Shown here: piece after piece, positions 1 to 11,498 of the stretch | Position numbering within the stretch: position 1 is the first letter of the stretch | Layout of the letters: every line of letters begins with the position of its first letter | Source of the DNA: a candidate division WOR-3 bacterium | Lineage (GTDB): Bacteria; Hydrothermota; UBA3072; B12-G15 | NCBI GenBank assembly: GCA_965649055.1 | Contig: CBFGJG010000056.1 | Span: forward strand, 1-11,498 | Length of the DNA: 11,498 bases | Direction of reading: 5' to 3' | Notes under the pieces: model-generated | Database searches by the model: none | The model's input: only the letters and a program-made list of their open reading frames with translations | What the model was told of the DNA's origin: nothing | Program-made: the position numbers and the translations under genes

Positions 1-211
1 ATCTCTCTCTCTCGAGAGGGAATTTTTATACTGATGAATGCATAATAAAGAATTCCAGAATAAAGATATATTTAACATTAAAGAGGATAAAGTTTATTTG
101 AAGAACCCTTTGCACCTTTGCCCAAAGGTGTGAAGGGGAGACATAAAAGGGCATAAAAGGGTTTGATTTTAGCAAAAGAAAAAAATTAAAAATTTAAATG
201 GAGGTAATTTT
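1..211 (+). repeat. Conserved cassette leader, copy 1 (5' part truncated by window edge)
   Basis: 1-152 is nearly identical to 4879-5032 (one substitution at 100, a 2-nt indel in the hairpin loop, one substitution after the hairpin). Similarity resumes at the A-rich tract and GGAGGT RBS (200-205) before ATG 212. Contains a local 10-bp tandem duplication CATAAAAGGG x2 (142-161). Confidence 0.95.
106..153 (+). promoter_or_regulatory. Conserved leader stem-loop (candidate cis-regulatory RNA element)
   Basis: CCCTTTGCACCTT pairs with AAGGTGTGAAGGG (13 bp, two G-U pairs on the + transcript). Arms are identical in all three leader copies. Loop GCCC is complementary to a downstream GGGC. Confidence 0.6.
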
Positions 212-385
212 ATGATTGAAATAGTATTTCCTGGGATAATAGTAGATGCCTTAATCGGAAGAGCGAAACCAGAATGTAGATGCGATTGCTGGGATAGAGG
301 TTCAAGAGAAGGGGAAAACTGTTCAGCAGGTTCATATTGTAGCGCTCGTATGGATATAGGACAATTTGATGCATTTGCAGTATAA
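212..385 (+). CDS. Cys-rich RiPP precursor peptide 1, 57 aa: MIEIVFPGIIVDALIGRAKPECRCDCWDRGSREGENCSAGSYCSARMDIGQFDAFAV
   Basis: Manual translation; not in the ORF track. GGAGGT RBS 6 nt before the ATG; 5 Cys including CxCxC; directly upstream of a rSAM/SPASM gene; same position relative to the leader as the other precursors. Confidence 0.9.
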   Translation: MIEIVFPGIIVDALIGRAKPECRCDCWDRGSREGENCSAGSYCSARMDIGQFDAFAV

Positions 386-389
386 CTTT

Positions 390-418
390 AGGGGGACGGA
401 AGCATCCGACCCCCTTTT
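390..418 (+). terminator. Hairpin plus short U-tract between precursor 1 and maturase (leaky terminator or mRNA stabiliser)
   Basis: GGGGG-A-CGGA / AGCA loop / TCCG-A-CCCCC followed by TTTT; very GC-rich against an AT-rich background. Confidence 0.75.
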
Positions 419-436
419 CAAAAAACTGGAGAAAAA

Positions 437-1858
437 ATGAATGTTCCATTTATAAAAAAGTTAAAAGTAGGAAATAATTATTATATCTATGATGTGAATT
501 CAAATAATATTCTAAGGTGTGATGAAAAAATATATAATATGATAGATACGAGTTACTGGAATACTAATGAGAAAATAATTGAGTTCCAAAAGAAAGGTAT
601 CTTTTCCCTAAAAAGACCTAAGAAAATAGTTCCTCCTTTTTCATTTGAAGAGATGAGAAAAATTTTAGAAAATGATTTAGTTGGTATATCAATGTTTATT
701 TCAGATAATTGCAATCTTAAATGTAAATACTGTTTTTTTTCAAATAACTATTATAAAACAATAAGTAGACCTTTAAAAAACAATCTAATGCATTTTCCAA
801 TGGCAAAAAAAATCCTTGATTTTTATCTAAATCATAGTGAGAATAGTGAAAGAAAGATTATAACTTTTTATGGTGGTGAGCCTTTGTTAAATTTTAAAGT
901 GATTAAAAAAAGTATTGAATACATTAAAGAAAAGTTAAAGGATTATACAAAGGAAATTATATTTTCATTTACCACAAATTTATACACTATTACAGATGAG
1001 GAAATTGAGTTTATTATAAATAATAATATCAGATTAGCAGTTTCACTTGATGGTCCTAAAGATATTCATAACAAATTTAGGCTTGATAAAACAGGAAAAG
1101 GAACATTTGATGTAGTAATGAAAAATTTAAATAAAATAAAAGATAAAAATATTGAATTCTTTAAAAAGAATGTTGGTTTTATAAGTGTGGCTACAGGAGG
1201 AACAGATATTGAAAAGGTTGCCAAATTTTTTACAGAATATTTTTCTGAGAATGTGAGTGTTAAAATTGGAGGGCTTTCATTCCTTCCTATGAATGAGACT
1301 TCAGAATTTTATGGTTTCAAATACTCACCAAACTACAAAAATGAGGAATTTTTATACAATGAATATAAAGACTGCAAGATAAAAGGTAAATCTCAAATTT
1401 CCCATAATGTTCTTTTTGATTTTTATGAAATAGAATTTTCAAAAATTCATAACAGATTTATGATACCTCTTGGGGAGATTTTTTATTCAAGTAGTGGTTG
1501 TACCCCAGGACAATTAAGACCATTAGTTGATGTAAATGGCTCAATATTTCTCTGTGAAAAGACTGGTTTTACATTTCATATAGGAGATGTTATAAATGGA
1601 TTTGATTATGAAAAGTGTTATCGCCTTATGGAAGAATTTGCATTGATCAGAGACGAGATTTGCAGGGATTGTTGGGCTTTGAGGTTTTGTGGAGTTTGTT
1701 ATCTTTATGGGATAGATGAGGAAGGAAAACTGAACAAAGGAAGATTGATAGAGATGTGTAAAAAAGAGAAAAGGGCATATGAAGTATTATTGAGAAGATA
1801 CATAGAGATTAGAGAAAAGAAAATGGATGCATTTGATAATTTAAGAAAAAATGAATAA
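437..1858 (+). CDS. Radical SAM/SPASM peptide maturase (CcpM-like Cys-rich peptide maturase), 473 aa
   Basis: CNLKCKYC (CxxxCxxC), YGGEPLL and SLDG motifs; C-terminal Cys cluster GCTPG...FLCEK...CRDCWALRFCGVC...C; N-terminal extension (YYIYDVNSNNIL) typical of an RRE-like domain; GGAG RBS at 428-431. Confidence 0.93.
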   Translation: MNVPFIKKLKVGNNYYIYDVNSNNILRCDEKIYNMIDTSYWNTNEKIIEFQKKGIFSLKRPKKIVPPFSFEEMRKILENDLVGISMFISDNCNLKCKYCFFSNNYYKTISRPLKNNLMHFPMAKKILDFYLNHSENSERKIITFYGGEPLLNFKVIKKSIEYIKEKLKDYTKEIIFSFTTNLYTITDEEIEFIINNNIRLAVSLDGPKDIHNKFRLDKTGKGTFDVVMKNLNKIKDKNIEFFKKNVGFISVATGGTDIEKVAKFFTEYFSENVSVKIGGLSFLPMNETSEFYGFKYSPNYKNEEFLYNEYKDCKIKGKSQISHNVLFDFYEIEFSKIHNRFMIPLGEIFYSSSGCTPGQLRPLVDVNGSIFLCEKTGFTFHIGDVINGFDYEKCYRLMEEFALIRDEICRDCWALRFCGVCYLYGIDEEGKLNKGRLIEMCKKEKRAYEVLLRRYIEIREKKMDAFDNLRKNE

Positions 1859-2939
1859 TAAATTTTTGTTATTTATCTTTATTTTATTTCTAAATTGTTC
1901 TAAATACATTGAAAAAACCATAAATTTTAAGATTGCGAAAGAAATAGAAAGAGAAAGCCACTTTGAAGGCTTATATTTTCCTCAGTATATGGGAGGGAAT
2001 GATAGTTTTTTAATAATTTCAGGCATTCAGAGTCCTTCTCTTATGATAAATATAGAAAGAGATGAGGTTATAGAAACATTAGCGATTGATGGAGAAGGAC
2101 CAGGTGAAAAGAAGAACTGGGGGGATGCTCATTTCTATGGGAATAAACTACTTTGCGCTTATCATAGTAAGTTGATGGTTTATGAAAAAGAGAAGAATGG
2201 TTATAAACTAAACAAAGAGCTCGCTCTTCCTTTTAATGGATGGTATTTTAGGATTTTAAATGATACTTTATTAGTTTTTATGGTGATTGATAGATATGAA
2301 AATTTGTTTGTATTATTTAATTGGGATAATGGGAAGGTTCTATTAGAGTTTGGGGATGCACTTGTCTATCCTCAAAGAAGATGGAGACAAAAATTATTAC
2401 CTGATTTTCCTTATTATTTTTGTGTATATGATAGTTTTTTAATAGTATATGATTATTTTGTAAACAAATTTATTGTATATGACATTTTTAGCAAAAAAAA
2501 GATGATAATTTCTTGTCGTTCTATTAAGTATTGGAAAACTCCAAAAGTTAAATTTGATAAAAAACTACATAGATTTGTTACTCAGTGTCCCAAAGTAAAA
2601 ATAGCAACGAATGGGAAATATTTGTTTATAATGTTTGAAAAAGCTTGGTTATACAATTGGTCAATTTATAATAATAAGAAGATTAAGAATATGAGCCAAA
2701 AAGAAAAAGCAGATTTATATTCATCTTTATTTTATTATTTTATAGATGTTTATTTATTAGAAAATTATAAATATGTTGGGAGTATTTATCCATTCAACTC
2801 AAGCATCTTATTTAATGAAGATAAAAATATTCTTTATGAACCTGAATTGTTAATTGTTAATAAAGATAAAATAATAATTTTCCTTACTGATAATTGCAAA
2901 TTCAAAGTTAAATTACTACATATAAAAATTGACCTCTAA
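1851..2939 (+). CDS. Putative lipoprotein, 6-bladed beta-propeller-like, 362 aa
   Basis: N-terminus MNNK + hydrophobic stretch + FLNC (lipobox-like Cys16); GEGPGE motif typical of 6-bladed beta-propeller proteins; beta-strand-rich pattern; overlaps the upstream stop (translational coupling). Confidence 0.65.
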   Translation: MNNKFLLFIFILFLNCSKYIEKTINFKIAKEIERESHFEGLYFPQYMGGNDSFLIISGIQSPSLMINIERDEVIETLAIDGEGPGEKKNWGDAHFYGNKLLCAYHSKLMVYEKEKNGYKLNKELALPFNGWYFRILNDTLLVFMVIDRYENLFVLFNWDNGKVLLEFGDALVYPQRRWRQKLLPDFPYYFCVYDSFLIVYDYFVNKFIVYDIFSKKKMIISCRSIKYWKTPKVKFDKKLHRFVTQCPKVKIATNGKYLFIMFEKAWLYNWSIYNNKKIKNMSQKEKADLYSSLFYYFIDVYLLENYKYVGSIYPFNSSILFNEDKNILYEPELLIVNKDKIIIFLTDNCKFKVKLLHIKIDL

Positions 2940-4578
2940 TCCCTTTCTCCGTTTTCTTAGATTTCTTTCACCTTATTGGAGAAAGGGATTATTAGCATTT
3001 TTCTTTATGCTTGTTTCTATTCTCTTACAACTTCCAATGCCTTTCTTAACAAGATATATTCTTGATGATGTTATAAGGATGAGGAGTTTTAAGGTTCTTA
3101 ATATAATAGGGTTTTCTCTTATAGGTGTAATTATTATTCAAGGTATATCATTTTTTGTTGAAAGATATTTGCTTTCAACATTCAGGGCAAAGGTCTTGTT
3201 TGATTTGAAGGTTACATTATTAGATAAGATAGAGAGATTAAAATTATCATATTTTCATAATAAAGAGACAGGTTATCTTATGAGCAGGATTCAAGATGAT
3301 ACAAATCAGGTTCAGGGACTTCTTGCAGATACATTTATCTCATTTGTTCAAAATTTTCTCACATTCATAGTTGGGATATGTGCGACATTTTATTTACACT
3401 ATAAACTTGCAATAATATGTCTTTCAATATTGCCTTTATATGCTTTAACAACATATATATTTAATAAGAGGATAAGGGATTTGAGTTATGAATTAAGGGA
3501 GGCATTTGCGAAGGTATCAAAGGATTTACAGGAGTTGTTGTCAGGTATAATGATAATTAAGGCATTTACAGGAGAAAGATATGGGACATTAAGATTTATA
3601 AGGAGTTTGAGAGAAGGGATAAGGAAGACAGTTAAACTTGATATTACAGCAACTATATTTAATATTTTTTCAAATGTTATCTCATCAACAGGTCCAATAA
3701 TTTTGATATGGTATGGATGTTATGAGATAATGAAAGGGAGATTAACGATAGGCACACTTGTGGCGTTTAATTCATTTATCAGGTATCTATTTGCTCCCAC
3801 GCAAGCATTTATGCAGATGAATATTTCTATTCAGCAATCAATAGTTTCAATAAGGAGGATATTTGAGATAATGGATGAGGAGGAGGAAAGAGATAGAGGA
3901 ATAAAGATTGAAAGGATAGAAGGTAAAATTGAGTTTAAAAATGTTTATTTTTCTTATGATGGTATGAATGATATATTAAAGAACTTTTCATTGTTGATAT
4001 TTCCGGGTGAGAAGATAGGGGTAGTGGGAGAGAGTGGGATTGGTAAATCAACAATAGCAGGGTTAATTTTAAGGTTTTATGAACATAGGGAAGGAAAGAT
4101 TATGATAGATGGGATAGATATAAGGGATATTAATTTGAAATCATTGAGGGAAAGTATAAGTTATGTATCACAGGATATATTTTTGTTTTCAGATACGATA
4201 AGGGAGAATATAAGATTAGGTAAGAGAAATGCAACAGATATTGAGATAATAGAGGCTGCAAGGATATCAGGAGTTATGGATTTTGTGAAAAAGAAAGGGG
4301 GAGGTCTTGATACGAAGATAGGTGAAAGGGGGATAAGGCTTTCAGGTGGTGAGAGGCAGAGGATAGCGATAGCGAGGGCAGTATTAAAGAATGCACCTAT
4401 TGTGATACTTGATGAGGCAACGAGTAATCTTGATATAAAAAATGAGAAGAAGATAATAAGGCTTGCAATGGATATATTTAGGGGAAAGACGATGATAATT
4501 ATAACGCATAGAAAAACTCCATTAAATATGCTTGATAGGATAATAAAGATAGAAAATGGTAGTGCAAAAGAATTGTGA
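2929..4578 (+). CDS. ABC exporter, fused permease/ATPase (MdlB/MsbA-type) without a C39 peptidase domain, 549 aa
   Basis: N-terminal TM helices; Walker A GESGIGKST, Q-loop YVSQD, signature LSGGE, Walker B VILDE, H-loop ITHR. The TTG start is supported by alignment with the ATG of the remnant copy at 10699. Confidence 0.95.
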   Translation: MTSNPFLRFLRFLSPYWRKGLLAFFFMLVSILLQLPMPFLTRYILDDVIRMRSFKVLNIIGFSLIGVIIIQGISFFVERYLLSTFRAKVLFDLKVTLLDKIERLKLSYFHNKETGYLMSRIQDDTNQVQGLLADTFISFVQNFLTFIVGICATFYLHYKLAIICLSILPLYALTTYIFNKRIRDLSYELREAFAKVSKDLQELLSGIMIIKAFTGERYGTLRFIRSLREGIRKTVKLDITATIFNIFSNVISSTGPIILIWYGCYEIMKGRLTIGTLVAFNSFIRYLFAPTQAFMQMNISIQQSIVSIRRIFEIMDEEEERDRGIKIERIEGKIEFKNVYFSYDGMNDILKNFSLLIFPGEKIGVVGESGIGKSTIAGLILRFYEHREGKIMIDGIDIRDINLKSLRESISYVSQDIFLFSDTIRENIRLGKRNATDIEIIEAARISGVMDFVKKKGGGLDTKIGERGIRLSGGERQRIAIARAVLKNAPIVILDEATSNLDIKNEKKIIRLAMDIFRGKTMIIITHRKTPLNMLDRIIKIENGSAKEL

Positions 4579-4807
4579 TTTTTCTTGATTATTTTTATTA
4601 TATTGATAAAATAATTATATGTTTTTAATAATTTCTTTAACACTTCAAGATATAGATTCTCTTGCTTTGAAAAATGCTTCTGAGATAATAAACCTAAGGG
4701 AAAATCTTTATTCGCTTCAAGATGAATATAGAACTCTTTTTTCTCACTTTTTACAACCATTGATAATTCTTTATTTTTAAATATAGAAAATTTTTCAAAA
4801 AAAATCC

Positions 4808-4836
4808 TTGACAGGATTATATTTTTTATTTATAAA
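4808..4836 (+). promoter_or_regulatory. Sigma70-type promoter TTGACA-17 nt-TATAAA, with inverted repeat AATCCT-N4-AGGATT (4803-4818) over the -35 box
   Basis: Perfect -35 at 4808-4813, 17-nt spacer, 5/6 -10 at 4831-4836; lies at the 5' side of the repeated leader. Confidence 0.7.
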
Positions 4837-4983
4837 TAAAATATGCTTATGAGTTTCATCAAAAGCAGAAATAAATTAATCTCTCTCTCTCGAGAGGGAA
4901 TTTTTATACTGATGAATGCATAATAAAGAATTCCAGAATAAAGATATATTTAACATTAAAGAGGATAAAGTTTATTTAAAGAA

Positions 4984-5032
4984 CCCTTTGCACCTTCTTG
5001 CCCAAAGGTGTGAAGGGAAGACATAAAAGGGC
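4984..5032 (+). promoter_or_regulatory. Conserved leader stem-loop, copy 2
   Basis: CCCTTTGCACCTT-CTTGCCCA-AAGGTGTGAAGGG (4984-5017) with downstream GGGC (5029-5032). Confidence 0.6.
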
Positions 5033-5080
5033 TTGTGGAAGAGAAACGAAAAAATTAAAATTTGAAAATGGAGGTAAATT

Positions 5081-5323
5081 ATGAAAAAAATAAAATGTAT
5101 TATTATACTATTAATGTTAATTGGAATTATATGTAATTTATTTCTGACTTCGTCAGCAAATGAAATTCCATCGTTAGGTGATGGATTTGAATATCCACCA
5201 TATGAAGATGGAGGTGGTGAAGGGAATGTTCCAACTGGAACTAGATATTGGAGTGGATTTCCAGATAATCCTATATGGAACTGTGATTGTTATAACGTTG
5301 GTAATACTTGTTGGTGTGGATAA
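5081..5323 (+). CDS. Secreted Cys-rich peptide, 80 aa (Sec-type signal peptide; C-terminal CDC...CWCG)
   Basis: GGAGGT RBS; MKKIK + hydrophobic core + SSA cleavage-like site; acidic Gly/Pro-rich linker; WNCDCYNVGNTCWCG C-terminus. Confidence 0.88.
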   Translation: MKKIKCIIILLMLIGIICNLFLTSSANEIPSLGDGFEYPPYEDGGGEGNVPTGTRYWSGFPDNPIWNCDCYNVGNTCWCG

Positions 5324-5344
5324 AGGCGTTCTCGCCTTTATCCA
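5317..5344 (+). terminator. Perfect 12-bp hairpin overlapping the peptide stop codon
   Basis: TGGATAAAGGCG-TTCT-CGCCTTTATCCA followed by ATTTAT (weak U-tract). Confidence 0.7.
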
Positions 5345-5360
5345 ATTTATAAATTAATTT

Positions 5361-6362
5361 ATGATTTTGATTATTTTTTCACTTACTTTTGAAGAAATCT
5401 TTACACTTATAGATATTGATTCTCTGACTTCACAAATAATTTGCCATTATGGCCAAACACCAAGGATATATATATGGAAAGATAACTATATATTAGACTA
5501 TAATAATACTATGTGGTCAAAAGGTAAAGAAAAACTCATAGCAAATTTTGGGGATGGCCCTGATGAAATAACGAAAGGTTCTATGGTAAGACTTTATAAA
5601 GATTATTGTTACTTTCTTACTTCAAATGGTATTATGTCAATTTACAACTTAGAAAAAGATGAAATGGTGTTGAAAAGAATTATAAGAAATATTGGTATAA
5701 TTTTTGATTTTACCCTTGATTCAAGAGGGAACATTTTTATTTTTAGGCATAAGTCCTTATTCAGAGGTGGAAAACCTTGGTATGGTATTCAAAGGTTGAA
5801 GCCGGATGGGACACCTGAAAATAAAAATTTTCTTGAATTAGATGAGGAATACTTTGAATGGGTATTACAAATTGGGACTACAAGGGGGATGATTGAGATA
5901 CTTAATGATACATTATATTTTATAGAACCTCATAAACCTATTTTTTATAAATTTACTACAGATGGGAAATTGATAAAAAAATGTAAACTCAAAATTGAAA
6001 GATTTATTCCGCCAAAAGAAAAGTTTAAACCTCAAAGAATAGTTACAAATGATGAATGGTTTAAAAAAACTATAGAATGGGGAGAGACTTGGACACCACC
6101 TTTGAGGCTACTAAAGATACCACCTAAATATCTTCTAATATTTTATTTTGATAAAGGTGCATATATTGAAAAACCTAATGGTTTTATTGTTCTAATAGAT
6201 ACAAACGGAGATATATTAGATGAGATTAATATTGATAAACAACCTATTGGAATAGATGATAATGGAATTATATATTTTGCATCACCAAAACAGATAAACA
6301 AGAATGGCACTATGAAGATATTTAAATACAAGTTGAACATTGAGACGGGAAAAAATAAATAA
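5361..6362 (+). CDS. 6-bladed beta-propeller-like protein, 333 aa
   Basis: FGDGPDE motif near the N-terminus; NHL/propeller-like blades (FDFTLDSRGNIFIF, FYKFTTDGKLIK, LIDTNGDIL, IGIDDNGIIYF); short hydrophobic N-terminus. Confidence 0.7.
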   Translation: MILIIFSLTFEEIFTLIDIDSLTSQIICHYGQTPRIYIWKDNYILDYNNTMWSKGKEKLIANFGDGPDEITKGSMVRLYKDYCYFLTSNGIMSIYNLEKDEMVLKRIIRNIGIIFDFTLDSRGNIFIFRHKSLFRGGKPWYGIQRLKPDGTPENKNFLELDEEYFEWVLQIGTTRGMIEILNDTLYFIEPHKPIFYKFTTDGKLIKKCKLKIERFIPPKEKFKPQRIVTNDEWFKKTIEWGETWTPPLRLLKIPPKYLLIFYFDKGAYIEKPNGFIVLIDTNGDILDEINIDKQPIGIDDNGIIYFASPKQINKNGTMKIFKYKLNIETGKNK

Positions 6363-6379
6363 TTTTTGTTTTCATTTAT

Positions 6380-6979
6380 ATGAGAGCATTACGTATGATA
6401 AAAAAGAATATAATTTCTGAATTTCTTTTTTATTTAGTTGTCATTGTAATAATATTTTTTCAAAGCAAAATGATTATTTCAAGTAAAATGGAAGTATCTT
6501 TTTATAAAGTTCTTCTTTCTAATGTTCCTTTGAAGGAATATTCAATTATGAAGGAATATTCAATTATTTTAAGAGATACACTTTCAAATGATTTTGAATT
6601 TAATAATTTATATGGGAAAGGGATTTGTCTTATCTCAACAATATCACCGAAGGATTGTGGTAGTTGTCTTGAAGATGAGATAGAGTTTTTGAAGTATTTA
6701 AGAAAGAATATACCTGCATTACAGGTAATAGTTTTAATAGAGCATTATTATGGTTCAAATAAAGAGATATCGCCATGGATTAAAGACTATGGGATAGAAT
6801 ATCCATATTATTTTGATGTTGGTGGTATAGAGGATAGATGTTCATTAAAGAGTAGTTTATCTTGGAATTTTATAGTTAAAGATGGGAAGATAATAACGAG
6901 TTTTCTTCCACCGAAGGGGAGAATGGAAAAGAAGATATGTTTAAATTTATTAAGGGAATATGTGAGGATGAAGATATAA
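6380..6979 (+). CDS. Membrane-anchored thioredoxin-fold (TlpA/redoxin-like) CxxC protein, ~199 aa; exact start uncertain
   Basis: N-terminal TM helix; beta strand then DCGSC then helix (LEDEIEFLKYL); later YGIEYPYYFD and FIVKDGKI segments typical of TlpA/AhpC-like folds. Confidence 0.7.
   Translation: MRALRMIKKNIISEFLFYLVVIVIIFFQSKMIISSKMEVSFYKVLLSNVPLKEYSIMKEYSIILRDTLSNDFEFNNLYGKGICLISTISPKDCGSCLEDEIEFLKYLRKNIPALQVIVLIEHYYGSNKEISPWIKDYGIEYPYYFDVGGIEDRCSLKSSLSWNFIVKDGKIITSFLPPKGRMEKKICLNLLREYVRMKI
6531..6566 (+). repeat. In-frame 18-bp tandem duplication
   Basis: TGAAGGAATATTCAATTA x2, encoding KEYSIM-KEYSII. Confidence 0.95.
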
Positions 6980-7061
6980 ATAAAAAAAATCCTTTACTGG
7001 ATTCTATTTTTTTTATCAAAAGCAGGAATAAAATAAACTCTATCGAAAGGGAATTTTTATA

Positions 7062-7090
7062 TTGATAAAAGGATAAAAGATATATATAAT
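7062..7090 (+). promoter_or_regulatory. Candidate sigma70 promoter TTGATA-17 nt-TATAAT unique to leader copy 3
   Basis: TTGATA 7062-7067, 17-nt spacer, perfect TATAAT 7085-7090. AT-rich context raises the chance-match rate. Confidence 0.55.
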
Positions 7091-7119
7091 TTTAAAGAGG
7101 ATAAAATTTATTTGAAGAA

Positions 7120-7167
7120 CCCTTTGCACCTTCTTGCCCAAAGGTGTGAAGGGAAGACATAGGGCAA
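7120..7167 (+). promoter_or_regulatory. Conserved leader stem-loop, copy 3
   Basis: Stem 7120-7153 identical to copy 2; loop TTGCCC complementary to GGGCAA at 7162-7167. Confidence 0.6.
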
Positions 7168-7201
7168 AATAAATGAAGATAAAACCTTAAAAGGAGGAAA
7201 A

Positions 7202-7354
7202 ATGATAAATATATTAAATTTGTTAGAGGGTAAAATAAAGCCAGTTTGTGGATGTGGTTGTCCCTGTTGGTGTGGTGGCGTTATTAATGATTATGCAAAT
7301 GGTTATATGGACGGTGCTTGTGACGCTGGGCTTGCCTCTAATGAAGCTGCATAA
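7202..7354 (+). CDS. Cys-rich RiPP precursor peptide 3, 50 aa: MINILNLLEGKIKPVCGCGCPCWCGGVINDYANGYMDGACDAGLASNEAA
   Basis: Manual translation; not in the ORF track. AAGGAGG RBS; CxCxCxCxC plus a sixth Cys; directly upstream of the second rSAM/SPASM gene. Confidence 0.92.
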   Translation: MINILNLLEGKIKPVCGCGCPCWCGGVINDYANGYMDGACDAGLASNEAA

Positions 7355-7374
7355 AGAATGGATGCTAGTAGTCA

Positions 7375-7409
7375 TAATCCCGGGAAGACTAAAGTCCTTC
7401 CCGGGATTA
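7375..7409 (+). terminator. Perfect 13-bp hairpin between precursor 3 and maturase (no U-tract; likely stabiliser or attenuator)
   Basis: TAATCCCGGGAAG-ACTAAAGTC-CTTCCCGGGATTA. Confidence 0.7.
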
Positions 7410-7432
7410 ACATAACATTTAATAAATAATAG

Positions 7433-8878
7433 ATGAATGTTAAGAAATTTTTTATAAATAATAGGTTTTTCGTTTATGACAGAAATACTAATTTTATTTT
7501 AGAAGTAGATGAGAGGTTGTATAATATTCTTGATGAAAAAATAGGTTTTAATGAAAAAATAAAACGCAAAATCAAAAGAGACAGAAGTTTGAGCGAAACT
7601 ATAAAAAATATTGAAAATATACAAAATCAATATGGATGTTTCAGACCATTGGAACTAAAAGGATTTAAGTTTGACGAAAAAATGAAAAAAGAAAATATAA
7701 ACAGAGTGGTTCTCAATATAACGGAGGAATGTAATCTCAGATGTAAATATTGCACTTATTCAGGTTTATATAATGGTCATAGAGTTCATACAAATAAATT
7801 TATGGATTGGGCTATTGCTCAAAAAAGCATTGAGTTCTTTTTGAAACATTGTGATAATAAAGAAAAGCAAGTCTTAGGTTTCTATGGAGGTGAACCTTTA
7901 TTAAATTTTGAGATAATTGAGGCATCGGTGCGTTTTATTAAAAATAAAAATGTAAGAAATTTAAATTTTTCAATAACAACAAATGGAACCTTGCTGAATA
8001 AAAAAATTATTAATTTTTTTGTTGAAAATGACTTTCAGGTTTTTATAAGTCTTGATGGTCCTAAAGATATAAATGATATATATAGAGTTTTTCAAAATTA
8101 TAAAGGTTCTTTTGATATTGTATATAGAAATGCTTTATTTATAAAGAAATTATATCCTGAATACTACAATAAAAAGGTTGGGTTTTCTGTGGTTATTCAT
8201 CCGCCGTATAGATGCGAAGAATTTTATAAATTTTTTACAGAAAATCCATTAGTTAAAGATAACATTCATATTTTTTCTTTTGTGAATCCATTTGGAACAA
8301 CTTTTTATAATAATTTTACAAAGGAAGAAATTAATGAGTATCTCCCTTTCTGGAATAAGATTAGGGAAAAATTTGTAAAAATGATGGTGAAAGAAGAATA
8401 TAATGATGAGATAAAAATTCTGTTTGAACTTTTTGGAAAAAGTGTTTATCAAATACATTTAATGCCAAAAGGGATAATCAAAGAAAAATATTTACATCCT
8501 GGTGGAATATGTTATCCTGGTTTTTATAAAACATTTGTTGGAACCTCAGGAAAGATTTATCCGTGTGAAAAACTTGGATATGTTTTGGAGATAGGAGATA
8601 TATTTGAAGGGATAAATGTTAATATGGTTAATAATATTATTAATGAATTCATAAGTATAAAAGAAGAATTATGCAAAGAATGTTGGGCTGTAAGGTTATG
8701 TAATCCATGCTTTTTAAGTGCAATTGAAGGTAACAAATTTTCAGTTAAAAGAAAAAAAGAATTTTGCAATATGAATAAAAAAAATATTGAAAAGAATCTT
8801 GAAACATATATTATGATAATGATGGATAATAAAGATGCTTTTGATAGTGAAAAGTTTAAGGTAAGTTTTACTCAATGA
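7433..8878 (+). CDS. Radical SAM/SPASM peptide maturase (CcpM-like), 481 aa
   Basis: CNLRCKYC, YGGEPLL, TTNGTLL, SLDGP; C-terminal GICYPG...YPCEK...CKECWAVRLCNPC...C; RRE-like N-terminus (FFVYDRNTNFIL). Divergent paralogue of 437-1858. Confidence 0.93.
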   Translation: MNVKKFFINNRFFVYDRNTNFILEVDERLYNILDEKIGFNEKIKRKIKRDRSLSETIKNIENIQNQYGCFRPLELKGFKFDEKMKKENINRVVLNITEECNLRCKYCTYSGLYNGHRVHTNKFMDWAIAQKSIEFFLKHCDNKEKQVLGFYGGEPLLNFEIIEASVRFIKNKNVRNLNFSITTNGTLLNKKIINFFVENDFQVFISLDGPKDINDIYRVFQNYKGSFDIVYRNALFIKKLYPEYYNKKVGFSVVIHPPYRCEEFYKFFTENPLVKDNIHIFSFVNPFGTTFYNNFTKEEINEYLPFWNKIREKFVKMMVKEEYNDEIKILFELFGKSVYQIHLMPKGIIKEKYLHPGGICYPGFYKTFVGTSGKIYPCEKLGYVLEIGDIFEGINVNMVNNIINEFISIKEELCKECWAVRLCNPCFLSAIEGNKFSVKRKKEFCNMNKKNIEKNLETYIMIMMDNKDAFDSEKFKVSFTQ

Positions 8879-8885
8879 AGATATT

Positions 8886-9764
8886 ATGATTTTACTATTC
8901 ATATTAAGCAAAATGATCCTTAACGAGAAGTTCATAGGAGTTATAAGTGATATTGAAGGATTTAAATTTGTGAAAATTATAGATGAAAATTTTTATTTCT
9001 ATTCCAAAGAGATGTTAAAAGTATTAATTTATAATAAAAATTTATTTAAAATTGGAGAAATAGATTTTAAAGAAGGTGATTGTCCTGAATGTGTAAAAAG
9101 GAGATTTAATAACATATTTATAGATACAGAAAATATAATAGTCTGTTCACCATTTCAAAAGAAGATAGTTTTATATAATTCAAACGGAATATTTAAAAAA
9201 ATAATAAATACACAGAACCTTCCATATTTTGTATTAAAGGATAGAGAGAGGATAATGACATATGAAATTAAAGAGTATAAAAGTTTTATTGCTTTTTATG
9301 ATTTGAATGGAAAATTTCTTAATAATAAAGAAATACCCCAAACAGATTTTACAAAAAAATATAATGTCTATGAAATCCCATCAGCAATTTGTTTTGATAA
9401 TAGTAGATTATTTATACCTGAAAGCTACCGATTTGGAATTTGGGAATACATGATTGAAAAGGATATAATAAAAAGATTTATAAAAACAAGAGATTTCTTT
9501 AAAAATCCTATAATAAAGAAGAGGGGGAGCTCTACAGGAGTTATAATTTTATCAACTATCAATAATATTTTTATCTATGATTCATTAATTGTAATATATG
9601 CAATTGGAACAAAATGTGGAAATTTATTGCTGCTTTGTAATAAAAAAGGTGAAGAATTATTATTATTAAAAAAATTGAAATACGATGATATTATAACAGA
9701 TGGGAGAAATATTTATGCAATTAAGTCAGATACTATTTATAGCCTTTCTCTTCTCCAAAAGTAG
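8886..9764 (+). CDS. 6-bladed beta-propeller-like protein, 292 aa
   Basis: Short hydrophobic N-terminus; repeated blade motifs (IVLYNSNGIFKK, IAFYDLNGKFLN, LCNKKGEEL); EGDCPEC at the position of the GxGPxE motif. Confidence 0.6.
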   Translation: MILLFILSKMILNEKFIGVISDIEGFKFVKIIDENFYFYSKEMLKVLIYNKNLFKIGEIDFKEGDCPECVKRRFNNIFIDTENIIVCSPFQKKIVLYNSNGIFKKIINTQNLPYFVLKDRERIMTYEIKEYKSFIAFYDLNGKFLNNKEIPQTDFTKKYNVYEIPSAICFDNSRLFIPESYRFGIWEYMIEKDIIKRFIKTRDFFKNPIIKKRGSSTGVIILSTINNIFIYDSLIVIYAIGTKCGNLLLLCNKKGEELLLLKKLKYDDIITDGRNIYAIKSDTIYSLSLLQK

Positions 9765-10569
9765 TGCTAAATTAGGACTCCCATATGATATTGAGAAAAT
9801 TAATAATTTTTATGTTGTTCTTAATGTGGAAAAAAAATTACTATTTCTTAAAAGAGGTTTATTCTCATTTAAAGTGATAAAAGAAGTTGATTTGTCAAAT
9901 ACTATATCTTCACAATCATTTTTTTTAAAGGTTGATAGCATAGTATATCTGGTAACAGGATTTAAAAATACGGATTTTTATTCTATCAATTTTGACAGTT
10001 TGGAATATGTTAATTCCGTTCCTTATAAAGTTACTGGTGGAATTTCAACAGATGACTATATAATTTTATTTGGAAATTGGAAGGGTAAATTTATTCATTT
10101 CTATACAAAAAAATTTTTATATAAAAATTCATTTTTGGTTTCTTTTAAAATCATGGACAGGATTTATTCTTTTTATTCCTGTGATACAATTTATTTTACT
10201 TCACCTGAAAAATTGATTATCTATAAATTTATTGATACTATGCTATTGGATAGTATAATTATAGATAGTATGAATTGCATATTAAGTGTAAAATACGGAA
10301 ATAAAGATATAGTATTTAAGATTACTGGTTTTACAGGTCTTGTCTGGAGTAAGGAATTTAGTATAGTTCCTTCTTTTTTTAAATATCCTGATTCAATTTC
10401 TAATTTTCTTTTTGATAATAATAAGAGTATATTATCAAATTCCTATTTATTTTTTAAAGATAAAACAAAAAAGATTGGAGATGGGAGAATAACGATAAAA
10501 CAAGTAAATAAAATTTATTTTATTTTAAAAAACAAGAAAATTGAAGTTTTTAATTTTAGAAAATTATGA
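9715..10569 (+). CDS. Putative exported beta-rich (propeller-like) hypothetical protein; start probably ATG 9715 rather than 9700
   Basis: GGAG at 9703-9706 precedes ATG 9715; MQLSQILFIAFLFSKSSA resembles a signal peptide; blade-like FIHFYTKKFLYKNSF and DTIYFTSPEKLIIYKF, the latter resembling DTLYFIEPHKPIFYKF in 5361-6362. Confidence 0.55.
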   Translation: MQLSQILFIAFLFSKSSAKLGLPYDIEKINNFYVVLNVEKKLLFLKRGLFSFKVIKEVDLSNTISSQSFFLKVDSIVYLVTGFKNTDFYSINFDSLEYVNSVPYKVTGGISTDDYIILFGNWKGKFIHFYTKKFLYKNSFLVSFKIMDRIYSFYSCDTIYFTSPEKLIIYKFIDTMLLDSIIIDSMNCILSVKYGNKDIVFKITGFTGLVWSKEFSIVPSFFKYPDSISNFLFDNNKSILSNSYLFFKDKTKKIGDGRITIKQVNKIYFILKNKKIEVFNFRKL

Positions 10570-10706
10570 TAAAGATTTTAAATTTTAAAATGACAGATAT
10601 TAAACAAAATACTAAATGTGAATGTTTTTCTATTGGTTGTGAAAATAGTTCAGGGTATTTAGAAGGATATGCAATGGGTATGTATGCATTCTCTGGAAAT
10701 GAATAA
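10566..10706 (+). CDS. Second precursor-like peptide of cassette 3, 46 aa: MIKILNFKMTDIKQNTKCECFSIGCENSSGYLEGYAMGMYAFSGNE
   Basis: Manual translation. ATGA overlap with the upstream stop; shares MIxILN, IK, CxC, YxxGYxxG and NE with peptide 7202-7354. Confidence 0.75.
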   Translation: MIKILNFKMTDIKQNTKCECFSIGCENSSGYLEGYAMGMYAFSGNE

Positions 10707-10786
10707 TAATCTTCTTTTCCGTTTTTTTAGATTTTTTTCACCTTATTGGAGAAAGGATTATTAGCATTTTTCTTTATGCTTGTTTC
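10699..10786 (+). pseudogene. 5' remnant of the ABC exporter (frameshifted, rest deleted)
   Basis: Aligns with 2929-3017. MNNNLLFRFFRFFSPYWRK vs MTSNPFLRFLRFLSPYWRK; a 1-nt deletion (AAGGATT vs AAGGGATT) gives TAG at 10762-10764. Confidence 0.92.
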
Positions 10787-10794
10787 ATTTATAT

Positions 10795-10844
10795 CCATTG
10801 ATAATTCTATATTTCTTGAATATAAAAATTTTCAAAAAAAGTCC
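10795..10844 (+). repeat. Start of a fourth leader/promoter copy, cut by the IS
   Basis: CCATTGATAATTCT...AATAT...AAAATTTTCAAAAAAAGTCC matches 4757-4807; homology ends at the position of TTGACA. Confidence 0.8.
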
Positions 10845-11498
10845 TGTTATTTCTATAATATATGTCATATGTTTTTACTATAAAATATGTCACATTGTTT
10901 TCTAAACATAAGTTCTTTCCTTCAATATTTCTTCTATTCTTCTTTCTTTCCTTATCATTTCATTATTTTCTGATATCTTTGTTTCAAGTATTACTTCTCC
11001 ATTATAAAGTATCCATACTTTATTCTCTTTTGATATCCTCAACTCAACAATAGCCCTTGCAAAGTTTAATTTCTTTCCTGTCGGATTAAGTTGTATCTTT
11101 TCCTTAAATATGCTTATTGTATTATCCTTGTTTACTCTCCTATAATATCTCTTAGTAAATATTAAATCAAGATCTTTCTTTCCTATATCCCTGTATACCG
11201 AACCCTCTACTTTATGGGAATATTTCAAATTATACCAGGGAATAAACTCTTCTACAAGATATTTATTCGCTTCTTCATAGTCCTTTATCTTCCTTATCCA
11301 CATCTCGTTTATTAGTCTGTCTTGAAAAACTCCAAATAGCCTTTCTATTCTTCCTTTCGCTTGCGGTGAATTCGCTGTTATCAATGTTATTCCTAATTCT
11401 TCAAGTGCTTTCTGTATATTCGTGTCCTCTTGTTCCTCGCTTACATCGTAATGTATACCTCCAATCCTTGTCGTCTTAAAATGTGATGCCCTGTCCAC
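10845..11498 (-). mobile_element. IS1202-like (ISNCY; IS481-related) insertion sequence, right end, partial
   Basis: End starts with TGT at 10845 exactly where leader homology stops; two ~25-bp imperfect direct repeats (TGTTATTTCTATAATATATGTCA at 10845, TGTTTTTACTATAAAATATGTCA at 10870) adjacent to the transposase stop. Confidence 0.8.
10902..11498 (-). CDS. DDE transposase, IS1202-like (ISNCY), C-terminal part; N-terminus lies outside the window
   Basis: ALEELGITLITANSPQAKGRIERLFGVFQDRL integrase-core motif and RRVNKDNTISI C-terminal motif; ORF is open at the window edge. Confidence 0.9.
   Translation of the reverse strand: MDRASHFKTTRIGGIHYDVSEEQEDTNIQKALEELGITLITANSPQAKGRIERLFGVFQDRLINEMWIRKIKDYEEANKYLVEEFIPWYNLKYSHKVEGSVYRDIGKKDLDLIFTKRYYRRVNKDNTISIFKEKIQLNPTGKKLNFARAIVELRISKENKVWILYNGEVILETKISENNEMIRKERRIEEILKERTYV

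What the first reader, a model, noticed from the sequence alone, without database searches (positions are those of the whole stretch)
5081..6979. Same chassis, different chemistry: Sec-exported peptide with a CxxC oxidoreductase instead of rSAM plus ABC
Seen: behind an almost identical leader, the peptide has a classical signal peptide and four C-terminal Cys (CDC-x6-CWC), and the cassette encodes a membrane-anchored DCGSC thioredoxin-fold protein but no rSAM or exporter. The peptide shares CDC+aromatic with precursor 1 and CWCG (TGTTGGTGTGG) with precursor 3. Inference: a disulfide-bonded, Sec-secreted counterpart of the thioether RiPPs, linking two peptide system types through the shared leader and propeller partner.
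Basis: partly seen in the sequence, partly recalled or inferred. Interest (0 to 1): 0.72.

Follow-up and report, generated by a model that had tools for sequence, protein, structure and literature searches.

The report
Exported four-cysteine peptide gene cassette
Three neighbouring genes encode a small peptide with an export signal and four tail cysteines, a likely propeller-shaped partner and a thioredoxin-shaped protein predicted to sit in the membrane; the unit recurs in relatives, shares its front-end DNA and probably its export pump with enzyme-cross-linked peptide units, and likely makes a sulphur-bridged secreted peptide whose job is untested.

Summary
5081-5323 is a signal-peptide gene with a CxC-x6-CxC tail; 6380-6979 has a ResA/TlpA-type thioredoxin fold (pLDDT 86.5, Foldseek E 3e-7) with an invariant CxxC. 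The same peptide-propeller-thioredoxin order occurs in relatives, one with no comparable radical-SAM enzyme, so the unit likely works without it.

Three corrections. (1) The shared words (CDC, CWCG) are at or near chance level. (2) The leader also heads seven non-peptide loci here, and the propellers are only remote kin. (3) 'Disulfide oxidase' is not supported: the fold is the reductase type, the cis-proline is missing, and no DsbA, DsbB or VKOR was found, only CcdA. A metal-thiolate tail is a live rival.

New: leader-headed units of both chemistries sit beside one TolC-RND pump, and at one orthologous site the cargo switches at the leader's CT tract.

The scan noted this cassette type before in other genomes; it resembles unstudied DUF5128-propeller neighbourhoods. 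My paper searches found no description.

The parts
4558..4746 (+). End of the ABC gene plus a truncated 5' copy of the TolC-type gene whose intact copy starts contig C40; the truncation falls where the flank of leader 2 begins
   Evidence: 92% identical to C40:1-190; C40 genes are OEP, HlyD-type and two ACR_tran proteins
4747..5080 (+). Leader 2: promoter-like site (TTGACA 4808-4813, 17 nt, TATAAA 4831-4836), CT tract (4880-4891), 13-pair hairpin (4984-5017), ribosome site (5070-5075)
   Evidence: Read from the sequence; copies; hairpin -19.5 kcal/mol, z -4.5. The consensus scan did not call this promoter
5081..5323 (+). 80-aa peptide: predicted Sec signal 1-26, acidic Gly/Pro-rich linker, CxC-x6-CxC tail (nt 5282-5317)
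   Evidence: no Pfam family
5317..5344 (+). 12-pair hairpin over the peptide stop codon, likely stabilising the peptide part of the mRNA
   Evidence: -19.5 kcal/mol, z -6.5; similar hairpins after 7 of 7 peptide genes looked at, windows picked by eye
5361..6362 (+). 333-aa protein, likely a DUF5128-type six-bladed beta-propeller with a very short uncharged N-terminal signal
   Evidence: No Pfam hit itself. Relatives in G001 (24 bits) and L009 (34.5 bits) pass the DUF5128 cut-off of 22.9; link by phmmer and profile; Atlas neighbours of a relative are DUF5128/NHL propellers. Not folded
6380..6979 (+). 199-aa ResA/TlpA/CcmG-type thioredoxin-fold protein with predicted N-terminal membrane anchor, CGSC at 93-96 (nt 6656-6667), no cis-proline at 160-161
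1..211 (+). Leader 1 (cut by the contig start at the CT tract), heading radical-SAM cassette 1
212..4578 (+). Context: Cys-rich precursor 1, CcpM-like radical SAM enzyme (296 bits, cut-off 500), lipoprotein propeller-like gene, peptidase-less ABC exporter
6982..7201 (+). Leader 3, shorter and more diverged, starting right after the thioredoxin gene
7202..10569 (+). Context: precursor 3, second CcpM-like enzyme (338 bits, cut-off 500), two ORFs without family hits

Best explanation
The three genes form a conserved unit that likely makes an exported peptide whose four tail cysteines are predicted to close a two-bridge hairpin, with no radical-SAM enzyme needed. Shown: gene order, the four invariant cysteines, the thioredoxin fold with its CxxC, the repeated leader, and the pump next door. 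Inferred: the leader drives one transcript, and the hairpin after the peptide gene keeps peptide message in excess; Sec moves the peptide across the inner membrane; the membrane-anchored thioredoxin faces outwards and acts as a dedicated thiol chaperone, more likely a CcdA-fed reductase or isomerase that keeps the cysteines unscrambled than a DsbA-like oxidase; the propeller binds its own peptide class as a folding partner, carrier or self-protection protein; the TolC-MFP-RND-RND pump carries peptide across the outer membrane and also serves the radical-SAM peptides, which cross the inner membrane by ABC. The product is likely a competition or signalling peptide; its acidic linker argues against a membrane-lytic one. 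The link to the radical-SAM units is a shared expression and export platform, not shared peptide ancestry.
For: Propeller-then-thioredoxin order in 6 of 6 cassettes seen (window, G001, L007, two in L009, L010); a Cys-tailed peptide gene precedes it in 5 of 6, and L007 is cut 30 nt upstream. Four Cys invariant in 7 of 7 full peptides, each with a hydrophobic N-terminus. CxxC invariant in 21 of 21 thioredoxin relatives; model pLDDT 86.5, ResA E 3e-7, Z 14.4 with rmsd 2.5 over 136 residues. G001 (98% complete) has the cassette and no CcpM-like enzyme, best 49 bits. Peptide spacing follows propeller clade: CxC-x6-CxC with the window and L009b propellers (48.8 bits between them), CxC-x4-CxxC with G001, L009a and L010 (156-322 bits among them; 13-17 bits to the window's). 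The pump lies next to the island in 4 of 4 lineages with downstream sequence, in this genome as a remnant plus an intact copy on C40. CcdA is present. Precedent for a dedicated thiol oxidoreductase with a four-Cys peptide: bacteroidetocins (PMC6671954, passages). That CxC...CxC suits a cross-strand disulfide ladder is my own knowledge, not a call.
Against: No oxidant source found: no DsbB, VKOR or DsbA-like gene in this 93.8% complete genome, and no DsbB or VKOR in 0 of 5 relatives. The cis-proline is missing in 6 of 6 close thioredoxin relatives while 13 of 15 distant ones keep it, which questions ordinary disulfide exchange. The peptide-class and propeller-clade match rests on two clades and could be plain co-inheritance. 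In this genome the pump is on another contig and the copy in the window is a remnant. The propeller fold of 5361-6362 is inferred through relatives. The cassette is rare (thioredoxin in 2 of 272 genomes of the phylum), and there is no evidence on expression or activity.
Confidence: 0.5

Rival explanations
1. The tail cysteines bind a metal (Zn, Cu or an iron-sulphur centre) and the proline-less thioredoxin is a metal chaperone or keeps the thiols reduced for metal loading.
For: [quoted passage not shown] 2007, which I did not read). No oxidase pathway found, CcdA present. Copper-chaperone Sco proteins are among the fold matches (Z 13.4, rmsd 2.7, 141 aligned).
Against: Sco proteins use CxxxC plus His (my knowledge); here it is CxxC. 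The Sco matches are tied with many reductases. No metal transport gene was seen in the cassettes read. 13 of 15 distant relatives keep the proline; their gene context was not read.
Confidence: 0.2
2. The peptide is not released. It is a small permanent subunit or exchangeable cap of the propeller, forming a variable recognition protein in the cell envelope.
For: Peptide class follows propeller clade; the same leader heads large exported proteins elsewhere in the genome; the mature peptide is acidic, 8 Asp/Glu against 1 Arg.
Against: Hairpins after the peptide genes suggest excess peptide; G001 and both L009 cassettes carry two peptides per propeller; a pump lies beside the island.
Confidence: 0.15
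3. The peptide descends from the radical-SAM precursors or is cross-linked by one of the neighbouring enzymes before export.
For: Local alignment of the mature peptide to precursors 1, 3 and 4 beats most shuffles (125, 23 and 58 of 5000; 150, 29 and 80 of 3000 with Cys fixed; uncorrected). A radical-SAM remnant follows the cassettes in L009.
Against: Exact shared words are at or near chance. G001 has the cassette without such an enzyme. The peptide has a Sec-type signal, which the three precursors lack, and its cysteines are at the end, not after a short leader.
Confidence: 0.07
4. The copy in this window is a decaying passenger in an unstable island and makes nothing.
For: The contig holds a truncated TolC, a truncated ABC start (10707-10790) and an ISNCY transposase.
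Against: All three frames are full length against relatives, with ribosome site, hairpin and all conserved Cys intact.
Confidence: 0.08

Closest known systems
DUF5128 (PF17170) six-bladed propeller neighbourhoods with small secreted proteins and TlpA-like genes, such as the NVEALA (PF14055) loci of Bacteroidota (the neighbourhood is recalled and also named in the scan's notes; no paper found)
   Same: Small exported Cys peptide, then propeller, then membrane-anchored CxxC protein; relatives of the propeller pass the DUF5128 cut-off; one distant thioredoxin relative is fused to DUF1573 and one is from Bacteroidota.
   Different: No NVEALA hit for 5 peptides scanned (window, two of G001, two of L009); propeller has a short uncharged signal, not a lipobox; thioredoxin clade lacks the cis-proline; units sit behind a repeated leader shared with radical-SAM cassettes.
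Bacteroidetocins, class IIf bacteriocins (PMC6671954, passages read)
   Same: Four-Cys peptide with a dedicated thiol oxidoreductase in a host without general disulfide machinery.
   Different: They use a double-glycine leader, a peptidase-ABC transporter and a five-helix membrane protein; here a Sec-type signal, a propeller and no such transporter in the cassette.
ResA / TlpA / CcmG membrane-anchored thiol-disulfide reductases
   Same: Fold, N-terminal anchor and CxxC position.
   Different: No cis-proline before strand 3 and no Trp before the CxxC; 10-21% identity to solved members.
CcpM-type (TIGR04068) Cys-rich peptide radical-SAM systems, the flanking cassettes
   Same: Leader, post-peptide hairpin, CxC-bearing peptide, a propeller-like neighbour, the pump.
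   Different: No enzyme and no ABC gene in this unit; Sec-type signal; the flanking enzymes themselves score 296 and 338 bits, under the 500 cut-off.

Membership tests
Peptide / DUF5128 propeller / TlpA-like cassette | Small peptide with export signal and conserved Cys directly before the propeller | tested here: met
   (signal judged by hydropathy and charge, no SignalP)
Peptide / DUF5128 propeller / TlpA-like cassette | Propeller of family PF17170 | tested here: inconclusive
   Window protein has no hit; 2 of 5 relatives in the alignment pass the cut-off; link by profile
Peptide / DUF5128 propeller / TlpA-like cassette | Adjacent membrane-anchored CxxC thioredoxin-fold gene | tested here: met
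NVEALA (PF14055) peptides | Pfam match to PF14055 | tested here: not met
   No hit for the window peptide and two G001 peptides at E 10, nor two L009 peptides at E 0.5
ResA/TlpA/CcmG reductases | Thioredoxin fold with CxxC at the start of helix 1 | tested here: met
ResA/TlpA/CcmG reductases | Cis-proline before strand 3 | tested here: not met
   0 of 6 close relatives, 13 of 15 distant ones; two other TlpA-like genes of this genome keep it. Judged on alignments
ResA/TlpA/CcmG reductases | Redox activity fed by CcdA/DsbD | not testable with these tools
   CcdA gene present on C6; activity needs an assay
DsbA/DsbB-type disulfide oxidation | DsbA-like oxidase with DsbB or VKOR partner in the genome | tested here: not met
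   None found in G000, 93.8% complete; DsbB and VKOR in 0 of 5 relatives
Bacteroidetocin (class IIf) | Double-glycine leader and peptidase-ABC transporter | tested here: not met
   Sec-type N-terminus; the neighbouring ABC has no peptidase domain
Bacteroidetocin (class IIf) | Antibacterial activity | not testable with these tools
   Needs an assay
Radical-SAM thioether RiPP (ranthi/sactipeptide) | Dedicated radical-SAM maturase travelling with the precursor | tested here: not met
   None in the unit; none CcpM-like in G001

The most novel reading that the evidence does not exclude
This bacterial family runs a modular peptide platform: a repeated promoter-leader acts as a swap site at which cassettes of different chemistry are exchanged, all feeding one TolC-RND pump, and the enzyme-free cassettes use a proline-less thioredoxin to make bridged or metal-loaded peptides in a cell with no known disulfide-forming pathway.
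Probability: 0.25. Interest if true: 0.75.

Novelty: new variant of a known kind. Interest (0 to 1): 0.52.

Why it matters
Peptide-propeller-thioredoxin cassettes recur in database neighbourhoods, yet I found no paper on what they do. This locus gives a compact three-gene test case with a clear two-way question (disulfide or metal), a candidate export route, and two peptide classes with matching propellers for swap experiments. If the shared leader and pump are a real platform, it would show how an uncultured hot-spring lineage diversifies secreted peptides by exchanging whole chemistries. How an organism with no DsbA/DsbB or VKOR handles a four-cysteine exported peptide is an open point in its own right.

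Tried and rejected
Single-sequence fold of the thioredoxin gave pLDDT 37 and was not used. Complex prediction of propeller with mature peptide gave no verdict. Rfam found no family for the leader; one chance-level hit at E 0.88 elsewhere. A phylum-wide pattern search for the leader missed even this genome's copies, so it says nothing; a narrower hairpin pattern over 5 genomes gave 8 rows, of which one site (G003:C24, two rows) proved a leader, two G002 sites lay inside genes, and the others were not read. NusG was not found in this assembly, so a NusG-paralogue reading of the leader could not be tested. Word-indexed protein searches returned only the query or one relative. The Atlas gave no answer for the window's own proteins. 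Three weaker propeller hits in the phylum (G002, G059, G262) had no Cys-tailed peptide nearby and were left out of the counts. L012 (E 1e-5, 67 residues) was not read; L006, L008 and L011 are near-copies of G001 or L009 and were not counted as separate cassettes. Sequencing runs: no RNA holder listed. A slippery-promoter switch was considered and set aside: the CT tract lies about 45 nt downstream of the -10 site, not in the spacer. A lipoprotein reading of the peptide was rejected (no lipobox at Cys18). A sigma-54 reading of the hairpin was rejected by eye (no GG at -24; consensus recalled). Paper searches without a relevant hit: (listings only); one search listed two papers that mention TIGR04068, not read.

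Full report
Setting. The window is the whole contig C56 of a 2.08 Mb, 93.8% complete genome. It carries three leader-headed units on the plus strand: a radical-SAM cassette (212-4578), the unit in question (5081-6979) and a second radical-SAM cassette (7202-10569), then a fourth small precursor, a truncated ABC start and an ISNCY transposase. Both enzymes are nearest to CcpM but stay under its cut-off (296 and 338 bits against 500).

Observation. It is correct. The peptide has a charged, hydrophobic, small-residue N-terminus and ends in Cys68-x-Cys70-x6-Cys77-x-Cys79. Two of 6000 short ORFs in the genome end in such a tail. A 12-pair hairpin covers the stop codon (z -6.5), and similar hairpins follow 7 of 7 peptide genes that I folded, of both chemistries; I picked those windows by eye. 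No radical-SAM or ABC gene lies between leaders 2 and 3.

The thioredoxin. It has no Pfam hit itself. A profile with its G001 orthologue (44-46% identical) found 21 proteins at E 0.001 or better among 1.84 billion, 6 of them at 1e-10. CxxC is the only invariant feature of the 21; 14 of 21 match AhpC-TSA and 9 Redoxin. The model from that alignment has pLDDT 86.5 and matches ResA (E 3e-7) and CcmG/TlpA-type chains (best Z 14.4, rmsd 2.5, 136 aligned). So the fold is confirmed, and it is the type that usually reduces (my knowledge of ResA, TlpA and CcmG). The proline before strand 3 is absent in 6 of 6 close relatives and present in 13 of 15 distant ones and in two other TlpA-like genes of this genome. 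Passages of PMC2665069 and PMC2757866 say this proline shapes substrate binding and release, may prevent metal binding, and is more conserved than the CxxC itself. No DsbB, VKOR or DsbA-like gene was found in this genome, and no DsbB or VKOR in 0 of 5 relatives; a CcdA-type gene is present.

The propeller. The 333-aa protein has no family hit, but relatives in the same position pass the DUF5128 cut-off (G001 24 bits, L009 34.5 bits, cut-off 22.9; 2 of 5 relatives), and Atlas neighbours of a relative are DUF5128/NHL propellers. I did not fold it. Its N-terminus is short and uncharged, like the short export signals that earlier notes describe for this genome (not tested here). The propeller-like gene of cassette 1 has a lipobox-like start and no direct similarity to it; the two profiles match only remotely (probability 32%, E 5e-4), and the ORFs of cassette 3 are not hit by either profile.

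Relatives. The thioredoxin occurs in 2 of 272 genomes of the phylum and in 5 metagenome loci. After merging near-copies there are six cassettes: window, G001, L007, two in L009, and L010. All six have propeller then thioredoxin; five show Cys-tailed peptide genes in front, and L007 is cut 30 nt upstream. Seven full peptides keep all four Cys and a hydrophobic start and little else. Spacing comes in two classes that follow the propeller clades: CxC-x6-CxC (window, L009b) and CxC-x4-CxxC (G001, L009a, L010). That fits cognate pairing but rests on two clades. G001, 98% complete, has no CcpM-like enzyme (best 49 bits), so the unit likely does not need one.

Shared words. The three-letter word with precursor 1 was reached in 1217 of 3000 shuffles and the four-letter word with precursor 3 in 163 of 3000 (314 with Cys fixed). 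Local alignments are a little better than chance (23 to 125 of 5000; 29 to 150 of 3000 with Cys fixed), uncorrected. The 11-nt DNA match follows largely from the codons in AT-rich DNA (inference). This is weak ground for common descent.

The leader. It is a promoter-like site, a CT tract, and a hairpin about 60-100 nt before the start codon. Ten copies with the hairpin exist in this genome: three in the window and seven on C17, C20, C32, C33, C34, C70 and C81. Four of the seven lead into 175-972 aa proteins with export-type starts, two are cut by contig ends, and one has no long ORF directly behind. It is thus not peptide-specific. It is conserved across the family: before both L009 cassettes, in reduced form before the G001 cassette, and before a different radical-SAM peptide cassette in G003. 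In 13 distinct copies the nine core pairs give 100 Watson-Crick, 15 G-U, 1 A-C and 1 other, with T-A to C-G swaps at two positions; this favours a sense-strand RNA hairpin over a DNA palindrome, though the copies are related. At one orthologous site L008 and G003 are collinear up to the CT tract and then carry different cargo. In the window, the TolC remnant and the ABC remnant both end where a leader flank begins. These few cases suggest that units are gained and lost at the leader.

The pump. A TolC-MFP-RND-RND set follows the thioredoxin in G001 (after one short ORF) and, as far as the contigs reach, in L007 (TolC) and L009 (after a radical-SAM remnant and a cassette-1-type propeller). In this genome it stands intact at the start of C40 behind the last bases of an ABC gene, and a 92% identical truncated copy sits just before leader 2. 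So the 'no exporter' statement holds for the unit but not for the island.

Mechanism. My best reading (0.5): Sec export, thiol handling by the dedicated thioredoxin with electrons from CcdA, a two-bridge hairpin tail, binding by the cognate propeller, release through the pump, and a role in competition or signalling. Only the anatomy is shown; every functional step is inferred. Rivals: metal-thiolate tail with a metal chaperone (0.2), permanent propeller subunit (0.15), dead passenger (0.08), radical-SAM substrate or descendant (0.07).

Comparison and novelty. It works like the unstudied DUF5128-propeller neighbourhoods and, in its peptide-plus-oxidoreductase logic, like bacteroidetocin loci (PMC6671954, passages). 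It fails the membership tests for NVEALA peptides, bacteroidetocins and radical-SAM RiPPs. The scan has noted this cassette type in other genomes (8 notes listed); I treat those as leads. Six searches of open-access full text found no description; subscription papers and supplements were not seen. What is particular here is the proline-less thioredoxin clade in a host with no known oxidase, and the leader and pump shared between two peptide chemistries. Verdict: real, a new variant of a known but uncharacterised kind, interest 0.52.

Noticed in passing
window 4808-5017, 1-140, 7011-7161; G000 C17, C20, C32, C33, C34, C70, C81; L008, L009, L029: A family-wide 5' leader (promoter-like site, CT tract, G-U-rich hairpin) with no Rfam match heads accessory, mostly exported genes; 8 of 17 long CT tracts in the genome are followed by the hairpin. 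The CT tract could be a Rho loading site or a recombination point (guess). It deserves its own study.
   Followed up: partly
L008:2430-2900 against L029:13600-14106: Orthologous site with the same flanking gene and promoter; the sequences diverge right after the CT tract into different cargo. In L008 the site lies about 1.5 kb from what looks like a tmRNA gene (recalled look, not tested).
   Followed up: partly
window 4558-4746 and G000:C40:1-8061: Truncated duplicate of an ABC end plus TolC start; the intact TolC-MFP-RND-RND set is on C40, next to genes that look like yidC, jag and mnmE (labels recalled).
   Followed up: yes
window 10566-10845: A fourth small Cys precursor (46 aa, similar to precursor 3: 7 of 5000 shuffles), then 80 nt of an ABC start and a leader flank cut by an ISNCY element whose end recurs on C57, C62 and C82.
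   Followed up: partly
window 8886-9764 and 9700-10569: Two ORFs behind the second radical-SAM gene with no family hit and no clear similarity to the propellers.
   Followed up: no
L009:860-1154 and L008:2655-4770: A further exported peptide with eight Cys follows a strong DUF5128/NHL propeller (65.8 bits) and two small ORFs; in L008 the peptide frame looks broken.
   Followed up: no
L029:10390-13622 (G003:C24): The same leader heads a 40-aa Cys precursor, a TIGR04463/geopeptide-like radical-SAM enzyme under its cut-offs, and an ABC pair.
   Followed up: partly
L009:3473-4528 and L003:10708-11130: An ORF without Pfam hit, acetyltransferase-like by my recall, follows the thioredoxin in the CxC-x4-CxxC cassettes: whole in L009, an internally deleted form in G001; 26% identical to a gene on C8.
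   Followed up: no
G000:C3:83419-84498: A stand-alone homologue of the cassette-1 lipoprotein with no peptide or enzyme nearby.
   Followed up: partly
L019:677-2022 and L020:7494-8875: In two distant genomes a propeller is followed by a thioredoxin-like gene with only one Cys at the active-site position and no Cys-tailed peptide.
   Followed up: no
G000:C6:8062-10153: CcdA-type gene with both Pro-Cys motifs, followed by a thioredoxin-like lipoprotein and a peroxiredoxin-like gene (the last two labels by eye).
   Followed up: partly
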